Shown piece after piece: positions 57,199 through 58,977 of a stretch of DNA of 64,000 nt. Made by a program: the position numbers. Position 1 is the stretch's first letter. Every line of letters begins with the position of its first letter. The DNA lies in the NCBI RefSeq assembly GCF_006345805.1, contig NC_043013.1:51336001-51400000 (forward strand). The letters run 5' to 3'. Origin of the DNA: Octopus sinensis. Taxonomy: Eukaryota.

Positions 57199-58977
57199 GC
57201 ATGCATGTATGTATGTATGTATGTATGTATGTATGTACGTATGTATTTATATATATATATATATATATATACATATATACAACAACAAATTGAGGAACGG
57301 CCATAATAGGCCGTTCGACCCACTAGAAAAAGCAGCCAGGGCTTCAACCGCAAATAGTAGTAATTCCGTAAACAGAGGAAAATTAAAAAACATTTACCCT
57401 GTTCATCTTTAGACAATGCATTGTTTCAGCGTTTTTTAATGGTAAACCAGCCTGATTAAATTAAATCAAGTCAATCTTCCAAAGGCCAACGCAAGGCTCC
57501 TTTACTGATGAATTGCGTTGGCCTTTGGAAGATTGACTTGATTTAATTTAATCAGGCGGGTTTACCATTAAAAAACGCTGAAACAATGCATTGTCTAAAG
57601 ATGAACAGGGTAAATGTTTTTTAATTTTCCTCTGTTTACGGAATTACTACTATTTGCGGTTGAAGCCCTGGCTGCTTTTTCTAGTCGGTCGAACGGCCTA
57701 TTATGGCCGTTCCTCAATTTGTTGTTGAATTTATTAATAGTCTCTGACTATTTCCTTTTTCTCACTAGACCGCTGGTGGCAAAATAATTTCTACTGAATT
57801 TTTTGCTACCCTAATATTGATTAATTGATAATTTTCTGTTTAATTCCGAAATGGAATCGGCAGCTTATATTTGCTGCCGATAAATTGGCGCGAGTACGAT
57901 GATTTTGAAAATTTTAGGTCAGATATTGCCGAGGCATTAAGGTAGCTGCCTCGTGTAATTTCTCTCCCTCCTGGCTCCTTTACTGATGAATTCCGTTGGC
58001 CTTTGGAAGATTGACTTGATTTAATTTAATCAGGCTGGTTTACCATTAAAAAACGCTGAAACAATGCATTGTCTAAAGATGAACAGGGCAGTTGAAAGGG
58101 CAGTTGAAGCCGAAACCACGAATAAATGGAATTTCAAAGGGAAAGAAAATAAAAAACATTTTTGTAGTTACCATCAATTTTGCTGCTGAATCTAACTGCG
58201 CTTGCGCGGTGGATTCGAAAATTATGATGTATAAGTATGTAGCACGTATGTTTTCGGTGCTATTTGCTGCATAAATATGCATTAATTTTAGCGACCTCAC
58301 TGATGAAGTACGGATGGCAAATTAATCTGTTCGCATATTGGTACGGAAACTCGAGTTTGAAGGTTACTACAAAAATATTTTATATTTTCATTCCCTTTGA
58401 AAATTGCTTTTACTCGTTGTTTAGGCTTTGATTGCTCTTTTTAGCATGTAAAGTACCCCGTCAAAGGTCACCTCTTTCGTGTTTAAATACTGAGATTATG
58501 TATACACTATTATATACGAAAATATGTTGTCTATTGACTTTATTACGCATGCCCTTCTTATTTTCACAGTTGTAGCTGTGTGGTAATTACCTTGCATACC
58601 AACCACACGGTTCCAGGTTTAGTCCCACTGCGTGGCACCTTTGTCGACTGTCTTCCACTATAGCCTCGGACCGACCAAAGCCTTGTGATTGGATTTGGTA
58701 ACCGGAAACTGAAAATCCGTCGTATGTATGTATATTCCTTTGGAATAAAACCATGTTGTCTTCGAAACATATGTCGAAAGTAAAAGAATTTTAATAACAT
58801 CTTCGTTCAACTCCATTTATTTACTTATAATACACAAATTACTGCACATTAACCCGGAGTTTCTACCTTTGAATAGGTCGCTTCATCCGTGTTACTTGCG
58901 GGAAGTTTGCTACCTTGGTAACTGTTTATTGAAATTTCCAGGCTAACGGTAAACAAAGGATAAGTCATTCATCCATT

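What the first reader, a model, noticed from the sequence alone, without database searches (positions are those of the whole stretch)
57280..58089. Retrozyme-like non-coding element: ~480 bp monomer bounded by hammerheads, with an inverted head (family seen three times)
Seen: two type I HHRs exactly 478 bp apart (57500, 57978), no coding capacity, a ~215 bp inverted copy at the left end, and homologues at 42888-43878 and 45795-46380. Established: non-LTR retrozymes are short tandem HHR-bearing repeats that yield circular RNAs, and Penelope-like elements produce partial-tandem plus inverted-end insertions and carry HHRs. Inference: this is a non-autonomous ribozyme retroelement whose 478 nt self-cleaved monomer may circularise and be copied by a Penelope-type RT. 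I do not recognise it as a described family, but cannot search databases.
Basis: partly seen in the sequence, partly recalled or inferred. Interest (0 to 1): 0.88.

Follow-up and report, generated by a model that had tools for sequence, protein, structure and literature searches.

The report
Hammerhead-bearing non-coding Penelope-type retroelement
This is a short non-coding mobile element carrying hammerhead-ribozyme-like motifs, built and inserted like a Penelope-like retrotransposon, so it is a new family of a kind already described in other animals.

Summary
The sequence features are real. A 478-bp unit (57495-57972) is followed by a 116-bp second start (57973-58088, 98% identical). It is preceded by an inverted 215-bp head (57280-57494), and the left end abuts a (TA)n microsatellite. 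Two diverged copies, 73-82% identical, lie at 42888-43877 and 45797-46380 and share the inverted-head plan.

Each unit carries a type I hammerhead-like motif with an unusually long helix II of about 68 nt. Rfam reports no hammerhead, even at E<=10. My own scan finds the copy-2 motif where shuffles give 0.16 hits per window. Six base pairs covary among the three copies.

In the flagged copy itself, the helix II pairs next to the core are disrupted, so self-cleavage there is doubtful.

The element matches the published insertion signature of Penelope-like elements: no ORF, more than one unit per insertion, inverted truncated heads and (TA)n flanks. A degraded Hydra-clade-like Penelope endonuclease ORF with its own hammerhead-like motif and (TA)n flank lies at 2785-3790.

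Verdict: a non-autonomous, retrozyme-like Penelope derivative in a probable cephalopod genome, and a new member of a known kind. Circular RNA formation is untested.

The parts
57145..57279 (.). (TA)n/(TATG)n microsatellite abutting the left end; presumed target
57280..57494 (-). Inverted, 5'-truncated head (unit positions 245 back to 19). On the minus strand it holds only the 3' part of a hammerhead.
   Evidence: Inverted repeat I1, 97% complementary; model R1 match 57404-57513 minus strand
57495..57972 (+). One full 478-bp unit, 37.7% G+C, non-coding
57499..57601 (+). Hammerhead-like motif 1 (type I): helix I 5 bp, core CTGATGA, long helix II, GAAAC, helix III of 4 bp with a 4-nt loop. Predicted cleavage after 57595. 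Helix II closure is disrupted.
57973..58088 (+). Partial second unit (positions 1-116), 98% identical to 57495-57610. It plays the part of a pseudo-LTR.
57977..58079 (+). Hammerhead-like motif 2. Predicted cleavage after 58073. It carries an extra G-to-C change in the helix II 5' strand.
42888..43262 (-). Copy 2, inverted part, with a complete hammerhead at 43114-43220 (minus strand). The left end abuts (TA)n.
43263..43877 (+). Copy 2, direct part (about 1.26 units of 490 bp), with the best hammerhead of the family at 43650-43756. The right end abuts (TA)n.
45797..46380 (+). Copy 3: palindrome 45794-46280 (95.5%) plus an extension to 46380. Hammerhead-like motifs lie at 45920-46027 (minus) and 46047-46154 (plus), with core CCGATGA. 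(TA)n lies on or near both sides.
2785..3790 (+). Degraded Penelope-like element remnant: C-terminal GIY-YIG-like endonuclease ORF (2785-3324), hammerhead-like motif 3617-3679, then (TA)n. This is the candidate type of autonomous partner, not a part of the flagged element.

Best explanation
The element is one insertion of a non-autonomous, non-coding retroelement family with a unit of 478-490 bp. Each unit carries a type I hammerhead-like motif about 145 nt upstream of the family's usual 3' terminus.

Inferred mechanism:
1. The element is transcribed.
2. A Penelope-like reverse transcriptase/GIY-YIG endonuclease supplied in trans nicks a (TA)n microsatellite and copies the RNA by target-primed reverse transcription.
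3. Because the template is longer than one unit (a multimeric transcript or a circle), the copy runs past one unit and creates the terminal direct repeat.
4. Priming from the second target strand, or a template switch, creates the inverted 5'-truncated head.

The hammerhead is conserved by selection at the family level. It presumably trims multimeric transcripts to unit length, and the unit-length RNA may then be ligated into a circle, as shown for retrozymes of other animals.

Shown here: the architecture, the repeat family, the covarying hammerhead fold, the (TA)n flanks, the lack of coding capacity, and a Hydra-clade-like Penelope remnant in the same window.

Inferred: transcription, trans-mobilisation, cleavage and circularisation.

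The flagged copy has a damaged helix II and a non-canonical right end, so it is probably a decaying copy rather than a source element.
For: Architecture:
- The direct part exceeds one unit in copy 1 (594 bp for a 478-bp unit) and in copy 2 (615 bp for a 490-bp unit). In copy 2, 43760-43878 matches 43272-43391 at 99%.
- Copies 1 and 2 are collinear over the whole unit at 74% identity.
- All 3 copies have an inverted head, with inner junctions at different unit positions. This fits independent insertions rather than a fixed terminal inverted repeat.

Ends:
- 3 of 6 outer ends fall at one unit position (about 245) and 2 of 6 at another (about 330).
- 4 of 6 outer ends directly abut a (TA)n run, and a fifth has (TA)4-5 behind a T11 tract. 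Only 9.6% of window positions have such a run within 12 nt, giving a binomial P of about 0.001.

Hammerhead:
- The strict scan finds both copy-2 motifs (helix I 8 bp, helix II 5 bp, helix III 5 bp) against a mean of 0.16 hits per shuffled window (50 shuffles, maximum 2).
- In the alignment of 6 instances (5 distinct rows, 3 independent lineages), 88.7% of cells pair. Six pairs change on both sides (3 in helix I, 2 at the helix II closure, 1 in helix III), against 0-1 when partners are slid by 1-3 columns.
- The hammerhead-constrained fold lies 0.5 kcal/mol above the minimum free energy fold in copy 2, and 2.3-2.7 kcal/mol above it in copies 1 and 3.

Other features:
- No ORF over 57 aa.
- The 478-nt monomer folded as a circle has an energy of -127.8 kcal/mol, z = -5.3 against 60 dinucleotide shuffles.

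Partner:
- The ORF at 2785-3324 has 2980 relatives in the protein search. Some of the 150 listed are about 700-726 aa with the match near their C-terminus.
- The three I fetched carry RWK-like, DKT, YRDD and CxCX5C motifs. The window ORF has the CxCX5C spacing.
- These are the features Craig et al. 2021 give for Hydra-clade Penelope-like elements, which have canonical hammerheads and insert into (TA)n.

Literature:
- The Penelope insertion plan of partial tandem, inverted 5'-truncated copy and a tail at one end.
- Hammerheads 100-700 bp apart on opposite strands, and unpaired nucleotides at the 5' end of helix II, in Penelope hammerheads (PMC4209133, passages).
- Animal retrozymes as Penelope-dependent non-autonomous elements (PMC7229834, sections 13, 14 and 17; bioRxiv 10.64898/2026.07.22.740005, abstract and section 14).
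Against: - No Rfam hammerhead model matches any site, even at E<=10 on a 681-nt stretch. The same holds for the other hammerhead-like motifs in the window.
- In the flagged copy helix II does not stack directly on the core.
- Copy 3 has C in place of the conserved U4.
- The covariation rests on only three lineages, and the structure tested was derived from one of them.
- The right end of the flagged copy (58088) lies at neither usual terminus and has no (TA)n.
- No intact Penelope ORF is in the window. The remnant's 3' region shows no significant DNA similarity to the unit (best E = 0.059 over 23 nt).
- The 478-490 bp unit is slightly above the 150-450 bp range given for animal retrozymes.
- The window shows no array longer than 1.26 units.
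- No expression data are available.
Confidence: 0.72

Rival explanations
1. The 478-bp unit is simply the pseudo-LTR/UTR of an autonomous Penelope-like element that exists full-length elsewhere in the genome. On this reading the window copies are ORF-less deletion derivatives or pLTR-only products, not a separately propagating family.
For: Penelope hammerheads lie in pLTRs, and most genomic motifs are single, truncated copies. In Xenopus, retrozyme consensus sequences match Penelope termini. A Penelope remnant is present in the window.
Against: Two copies that differ by about 25% both close head-to-tail on the same 478-490-bp unit with no ORF. The ORF-less form therefore predates their divergence, and each lineage inserted recently (arms 97-99.6% alike). 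There is no significant similarity to the one Penelope 3' region available.
Confidence: 0.15
2. It is a DNA-level foldback or palindromic element, or local rearrangement product, unrelated to reverse transcription. The hammerhead-like motif would be a chance or relic feature without function.
For: The window is full of palindromes (at least 9 others). Rfam does not recognise the motif. Two of the three copies have core or helix II defects.
Against: The inner junctions of the inverted parts differ among the 3 copies, and in copy 2 the junction is not a hairpin turn. Direct parts exceed one unit. Compensatory changes keep all three helices. The strict motif is far above shuffle expectation. A second, unrelated repeat (62011-62678) has the same plan and the same long-helix-II hammerhead.
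Confidence: 0.06
3. The functional product is not a ribozyme-processed RNA but a long hairpin transcript. The 227-nt arms with an 18-nt loop would feed small-RNA (siRNA or piRNA) pathways. The element would matter as a silencing trigger against its own family.
For: The arms are near-perfect inverted repeats (97%). The only Rfam matches over the centre of the palindrome are weak hairpin/microRNA-type hits well below their gathering scores.
Against: Those hits reach 39-41 bits against cut-offs of 83-102. The hairpin follows from the insertion mechanism in all copies, and its turn point is not conserved. This reading does not exclude the main explanation.
Confidence: 0.05

Closest known systems
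Animal non-LTR retrozymes (Cervera & de la Pena 2020, PMC7229834)
   Same: Short non-coding repeats with a type I hammerhead in each unit, low G+C (37-38% here), no LTRs, and a strongly self-paired monomer. They co-occur with Penelope-like elements and mobilisation by them has been proposed.
   Different: The unit is 478-490 bp against the reported 150-450 bp. The window shows only 1.24-1.26 units per locus, with an inverted head, rather than multi-copy arrays. Helix II is about 68 nt. Expression as circles is unknown.
Penelope-like elements, especially the Hydra clade (Craig et al. 2021, PMC8557442)
   Same: Partial-tandem insertion forming a pseudo-LTR, an adjacent inverted 5'-truncated copy, an extension present at one end only, insertion into (TA)n, and a hammerhead near the 3' end.
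   Different: There is no RT/GIY-YIG ORF. The one-sided extension is about 85 bp rather than 30-40 bp. There is no detectable DNA similarity to the Penelope remnant in the window.
Penelope min-hammerheads (Cervera & de la Pena 2014, PMC4209133)
   Same: Type I topology, a larger than usual helix II, a short helix I, unpaired nucleotide(s) at the 5' end of helix II, a palindromic helix III loop, and motifs 100-700 bp apart on opposite strands.
   Different: Helix III here is a stable 4-bp stem with a 4-nt loop, not 0-2 bp. Helix II carries a conserved insert of about 60 nt.
Plant LTR retrozymes (Cervera et al. 2016, PMC4918200; search listing only)
   Same: Non-autonomous, hammerhead-bearing elements thought to move through circular RNA.
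   Different: By the comparison, plant elements have type III hammerheads in LTRs, with PBS/PPT and 4-bp target duplications. None of these is seen here.

Membership tests
Hammerhead ribozyme, type I | Conserved core CUGANGA ... GAAA ... UH in that order, with the open ends at helix I | tested here: met
   Met in copies 1 and 2 (4 complete motifs). Copy 3 has CCGAUGA, with U4 replaced.
Hammerhead ribozyme, type I | Three helices around the core, kept by compensatory changes | tested here: met
   88.7% of cells pair. Six pairs change on both sides, against 0-1 in slid controls. Only 3 lineages.
Hammerhead ribozyme, type I | Helix II stacked directly on the core (pair 10.1-11.1) | tested here: inconclusive
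   Present in copy 2 (A-U, then 4 more pairs) and copy 3 (G-C, then 3 more). In the flagged copy, 3 unpaired nt on the 5' side and 1 on the 3' side separate the core from the helix. One unpaired nt at this place is known in Penelope hammerheads.
Hammerhead ribozyme, type I | Match to a curated hammerhead covariance model | tested here: not met
   No hammerhead family is listed at gathering score. None is listed at E<=10 on 57440-58120, nor among the 150 rows shown for 42000-59000; 18 lower rows were not shown.
Hammerhead ribozyme, type I | Self-cleavage at the predicted site | not testable with these tools
   Needs in vitro transcription.
Animal non-LTR retrozyme | Short tandem repeats (150-450 bp), each with a type I hammerhead | tested here: inconclusive
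   The unit is 478-490 bp. There are two direct hammerheads in copy 1 only, and no array beyond 1.26 units in the window.
Animal non-LTR retrozyme | Non-coding, low G+C, no LTR | tested here: met
   Longest ATG ORF is 57 aa. G+C is 35-38%. There are no long terminal direct repeats beyond the partial unit. PBS and PPT were not searched for.
Animal non-LTR retrozyme | Expressed as unit-length linear and circular RNA | not testable with these tools
   No transcriptome was available.
Penelope-like element (insertion signature) | Partial tandem (pseudo-LTR) plus an adjacent inverted 5'-truncated copy | tested here: met
   Inverted head in 3 of 3 copies. More than one unit in the direct part in 2 of 3.
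Penelope-like element (insertion signature) | Microsatellite, here (TA)n, insertion bias | tested here: met
   4 of 6 ends abut (TA)n and a fifth is near one. Background is 9.6%, P about 0.001. There are only 3 insertions.
Penelope-like element (insertion signature) | 30-40-bp tail at one end only | tested here: inconclusive
   Copies 2 and 3 each have one end at unit position about 245 and the other about 85 bp further on (about 330). Copy 1 differs.
Penelope-like element (autonomous) | ORF with RT and a GIY-YIG endonuclease | tested here: not met
   There is none in the element, hence it is non-autonomous. A degraded endonuclease ORF lies 54 kb away.

The most novel reading that the evidence does not exclude
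The family may be a cephalopod retrozyme whose template for integration is a circular or multimeric RNA with no fixed 3' end. On this reading, reverse transcription is primed by the two (TA)n target ends at two internal AU-rich sites of the RNA (unit positions about 245 and 330). It then runs round the template by more than one unit. The genomic copies would thus be direct footprints of rolling-circle, microsatellite-primed Penelope-type retrotransposition. The conserved helix II rod of about 60 nt would be a recognition handle for the Hydra-type RT.
Probability: 0.15. Interest if true: 0.6.

Novelty: new member of a known kind. Interest (0 to 1): 0.38.

Why it matters
If confirmed, it adds a mollusc lineage (probably a cephalopod) and a long-helix-II hammerhead variant to the animal retrozyme/Penelope system. 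It also shows, in one non-coding family, the full Penelope insertion signature: pseudo-LTR, inverted head and (TA)n target. That supports the recent proposal that animal retrozymes are non-autonomous Penelope derivatives.

There is a practical point too. Standard Rfam models miss all hammerhead-like motifs in this window, so such elements will go unannotated in genomes of this kind. The mechanism itself is not new.

Tried and rejected
- Rfam at gathering score on the whole window, and at E<=10 on 42000-59000, 57440-58120, 50650-50810 and 61300-62600. No hammerhead family appeared, only weak hairpin/microRNA-type and other matches below their cut-offs. I treat these as a side effect of the palindromes and microsatellites.
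- A short-range pattern (heptamer, 20-50 nt, GAAAC) found only 58300-58350. That is no more than chance (22 of 100 shuffles), and it misses the family because helix II is longer.
- My own covariance model R1 recovers the family and the second family at 62137-62240 and 62450-62553 (31 bits). Its other hits (50320-50414, 2478-2576, 39029-39146, 63026-63161 and others) come on both strands of palindromes. I reject them as hairpin artefacts. 61336-61429 scores only 12.8 bits (E = 1.4).
- The 57-aa ORF at 57614-57787 is rejected as coding. By my reading, its frame is not kept in copy 2.
- Similarity of the unit to the Penelope remnant's 3' region is not significant. Similarity to the neighbouring repeat 58089-58500 and to 60940-61440 is weak (z = 1.6-4.4 against mononucleotide shuffles) and is left as a lead.
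- The ORF at 2785-3324 has no Pfam hit. The word-index search of longer proteins found no relative. The exhaustive search did. Pfam on 7 of its 150 listed hits gave only one weak RVT_1 match, below cut-off.
- The host is inferred only from the best named relatives of a LINE RT fragment (Argonauta hians, 51-54% identity). It is a lead, not an identification.
- Not done: no search of Repbase, Dfam or any eukaryotic genome, because none is on hand. The genome-contig collection holds bacteria and archaea only and was not scanned. The phage, plasmid and E. coli collections were not searched, as they are irrelevant.
- Supplementary files were not opened. Those of PMC8557442 (Hydra-clade hammerheads and family lists) and of PMC7229834 could bear on whether this family or its hammerhead type is already listed.
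- Searches for 'octopus' + 'hammerhead ribozyme' + 'Penelope' and 'cephalopod' + 'retrozyme' returned only PMC8557442. In the held library I therefore found no description of cephalopod retrozymes.
- Nothing in the window looked human.
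Full report
**What is there.** The window is 64 kb, 34% G+C, has no N, and is very rich in microsatellites. Runs of (TA)>=4 cover 6.7% of it.

At the flagged place, the repeat finder gives a direct repeat 57495-57610 = 57973-58088 (116 nt, 98%, spacing 478). It also gives an inverted repeat with arms 57268-57494 and 57513-57739 (227 nt, 97%, 18-nt spacer). The first 12 nt of the left arm belong to the (TA)n/(TATG)n tract, so the element starts at 57280.

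In unit coordinates (position 1 = 57495), the insertion reads:
- inverted 245 to 19;
- direct 1 to 478;
- direct 1 to 116.

blastn finds two more copies, 42888-43890 and 45797-46380, at 73-82% identity (sequences). The longest ATG ORF inside the element is 57 aa, and an indel breaks its frame in copy 2.

**The hammerhead.** Each unit reads as follows:
- helix I 5' strand;
- CUGAUGA (CUGAAGA in copy 2, CCGAUGA in copy 3);
- a helix II of about 68 nt;
- GAAAC;
- a 4-bp helix III with a 4-nt loop;
- U and H;
- helix I 3' strand.

The open ends are at helix I, so the topology is type I.

Rfam 15 does not report a hammerhead. This holds at gathering score on the window, at E<=10 on 17 kb (150 of 168 rows shown) and on 681 nt around the site. 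The long helix II is a likely reason. It remains a real negative result.

My strict scan asks for the core, at least 3 pairs in helices I and II, at least 2 in helix III, and UH. It finds six sites in the window against a mean of 0.16 (maximum 2) in 50 shuffles:
- the two copy-2 motifs (8, 5 and 5 pairs);
- two identical motifs in a different repeat (62139-62238 minus, 62452-62551 plus);
- 61338-61426 minus;
- one short site at 35332 that I take for chance.

The flagged copy's two motifs and those of copy 3 pass only a relaxed scan that does not test helix II.

In an alignment of six instances (five distinct rows, three independent lineages), 88.7% of cells pair. Six pairs change on both sides: three in helix I, two at the closure of helix II and one in helix III. 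With partners slid by 1-3 columns the count is 0-1. The structure tested came from copy 2, which favours it somewhat.

The hammerhead-constrained fold lies 0.5 kcal/mol above the minimum free energy fold in copy 2, and 2.3-2.7 above it in copies 1 and 3.

In the flagged copy, helix II begins only after three unpaired nucleotides on the 5' side and one on the 3' side. The second motif carries a further G-to-C change in that strand. One unpaired nucleotide at that spot, a large helix II and low in vitro activity are described for Penelope hammerheads (PMC4209133, passages). Three unpaired nucleotides is more than described there.

My reading is that the hammerhead is a conserved feature of the family, best kept in copy 2, and that the two motifs of the flagged copy are of doubtful activity.

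**Architecture and ends.** Copy 2 reads inverted about 330 back to about -70, then direct 113 through 490 and on to 245. In it, 43760-43878 repeats 43272-43391 at 99%, and the inverted arms are 98.7-99.6% alike. Copy 3 is a palindrome 45794-46280 (95.5%) with the direct arm running on to about 330.

Copies 1 and 2 align collinearly over a full unit at 74% identity, with no region standing out. The unit therefore closes on itself without an ORF in two lineages that differ by a quarter of their bases, while each insertion's own arms differ by only 0.4-4.5%. That is the pattern of an old, diversified, non-autonomous family with recent insertions.

The inner junction between the inverted and direct parts lies at a different unit position in each copy. 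In copy 2 it is not a hairpin turn. This argues against a transposon with fixed terminal inverted repeats.

The outer ends cluster. Three of six lie at position about 245 and two at about 330, and both sites are AT-rich. Copies 2 and 3 each have one end of each kind.

Four of six ends abut (TA)n directly, and a fifth has (TA)4-5 behind a T11 tract. The background is 9.6% (binomial P about 0.001, with only three insertions behind it).

The right end of the flagged copy (58088, unit position 116) is the exception. It has no (TA)n and runs straight into another inverted-repeat structure (58095-58177 / 58357-58440) with its own hammerhead-like motif.

**Comparison with what is published.** Craig et al. 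2021 (PMC8557442; passages and section 11 read) describe Penelope-like insertions as follows. They are 5'-truncated partial tandems forming pseudo-LTRs, often with an inverted 5'-truncated copy at the 5' end. They have a 30-40-bp tail at one end only and a bias for microsatellites. Hammerheads are typically located within pLTRs. For the Hydra clade, canonical hammerheads were readily detected and almost all families insert into (TA)n.

Cervera & de la Pena 2014 report Penelope hammerheads 100-700 bp apart on opposite strands.

Cervera & de la Pena 2020 (PMC7229834; sections 13, 14 and 17) define animal non-LTR retrozymes. These are 150-450-bp tandem repeats with type I hammerheads and low G+C, without LTR, PBS or PPT. 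They are expressed as circles, and Penelope-like elements are the favoured mobilisers.

A 2026 preprint (10.64898/2026.07.22.740005; abstract and section 14) shows that vertebrate retrozymes are related to Penelope pLTRs.

The present family fits this picture feature by feature. The differences are these:
- the unit is a little longer (478-490 bp);
- helix II is much longer;
- the one-sided extension is about 85 bp;
- in this window there are only 1.24-1.26 units per locus.

**A candidate partner in the same window.** The stop-to-stop ORF at 2785-3324 has no Pfam match. Its nearest Atlas clusters carry GIY-YIG in 19-29% of members. The exhaustive protein search finds 2980 relatives, and some of the 150 listed are about 700-726 aa with the match near the C-terminus.

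One of seven relatives scanned has a weak RVT_1 match, below cut-off. The three long relatives I fetched show RWK-like, DKT, YRDD and CxCX5C motifs, and the window ORF keeps the CxCX5C spacing. These are the traits listed for the Hydra clade.

On the same strand downstream there is a hammerhead-like motif at 3617-3679 with core CCGAAGA, and (TA)n from about 3780. This looks like a 5'-truncated, decayed Hydra-type element. Its 3' region is not detectably similar to the 478-bp unit. It shows that such elements live in this genome, not that this copy is the parent.

The best named relatives of a LINE RT fragment are from Argonauta hians (51-54%), so the host is probably an octopod cephalopod. That is a lead only.

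**Mechanism, and how far it is shown.** The following are shown:
- a non-coding repeat family;
- a covarying hammerhead fold;
- insertions longer than one unit;
- inverted heads with variable junctions;
- (TA)n flanks.

The following are inferred from the cited literature:
- transcription;
- target-primed reverse transcription by a Penelope-type RT/GIY-YIG enzyme at a nicked (TA)n;
- a template longer than one unit;
- second-strand priming or template switching to make the head;
- hammerhead trimming of multimers;
- possible ligation into circles.

The 478-nt monomer folded as a circle is well paired (61% of bases, -127.8 kcal/mol, z = -5.3 against 60 dinucleotide shuffles). This agrees with retrozyme RNAs but does not prove a circle.

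Only the flagged copy has two hammerheads on one strand, and they are the weak ones. It is more likely a decaying copy than a source of circles.

**Verdict.** The element is a new family of a known kind: a retrozyme-like, non-autonomous Penelope derivative. Interest is moderate. It may be the first description in a cephalopod-like genome. In the held library, searches returned only PMC8557442, where my term searches found no account of such elements. It also carries a hammerhead variant that Rfam misses. The mechanism is not new.

Whether it matches a catalogued pLTR could not be checked.

Noticed in passing
window 2785-3790 (+): Decayed Penelope-like remnant. It has a 179-aa GIY-YIG-like C-terminal endonuclease ORF with CxCX5C spacing. 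Its long relatives (about 700-726 aa) carry RWK-like, DKT and YRDD motifs, which are Hydra-clade traits. A hammerhead-like motif lies at 3617-3679 and (TA)n starts at about 3780. The ORF's first 45 nt overlap a repeat (2635-2828) found again at 23394-23592 and 44907-45087.
   Followed up: partly
window 62011-62678: A second, unrelated repeat with the same plan. Its inverted arms are 62011-62244 and 62446-62678 (99%), and each holds a complete hammerhead motif with a long helix II (62139-62238 minus, 62452-62551 plus). The left end abuts (TA)n. My family model scores it at 31 bits.
   Followed up: partly
window 58089-58500 and 60940-61440: Directly right of the finding lies an inverted repeat (58095-58177 / 58357-58440) around a hammerhead-like motif at about 58290-58365. 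A 75%-similar relative near 60975-61093 sits next to the motif at 61338-61426 (minus). Both show weak similarity to unit positions 108-245 (z = 1.6-4.4), so they may be distant members of one superfamily.
   Followed up: partly
window 3617-3679, 34831-34872, 63085-63126, 46047-46154: The core variant CCGANGA (C in place of U4) recurs in four separate repeats with otherwise hammerhead-like helices I and III. It could be a tolerated variant or repeated decay. Rfam matches none of them.
   Followed up: no
window 50705-50754 (-): A compact 50-nt hammerhead-like motif (core CTGATGA, GAAAC, 4-nt palindromic loop) with an A-C mismatch at the helix II closure. Rfam does not match it at E<=10 on a 161-nt stretch.
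   Followed up: partly
window 2458-2596, 4656-5037, 9187-9833, 24630-24839, 38819-39346, 46752-46970, 50302-50432, 63027-63156: Many further palindromic stretches (70-95% arm identity). Some give both-strand hits to my model, but only because they are hairpins. Their nature is unknown.
   Followed up: no
window 28816-29978 and 31497-32060 (+): LINE-type reverse transcriptase fragments (RVT_1, E = 2e-12). The best named relatives are from Argonauta hians (51-54%), pointing to an octopod cephalopod host.
   Followed up: partly
window 45786-45796: A T11 tract (A11 on the element's sense strand) sits between the copy-3 terminus and the (TA)n flank. It resembles a short A-tail, which is not expected for Penelope-type insertions.
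   Followed up: no
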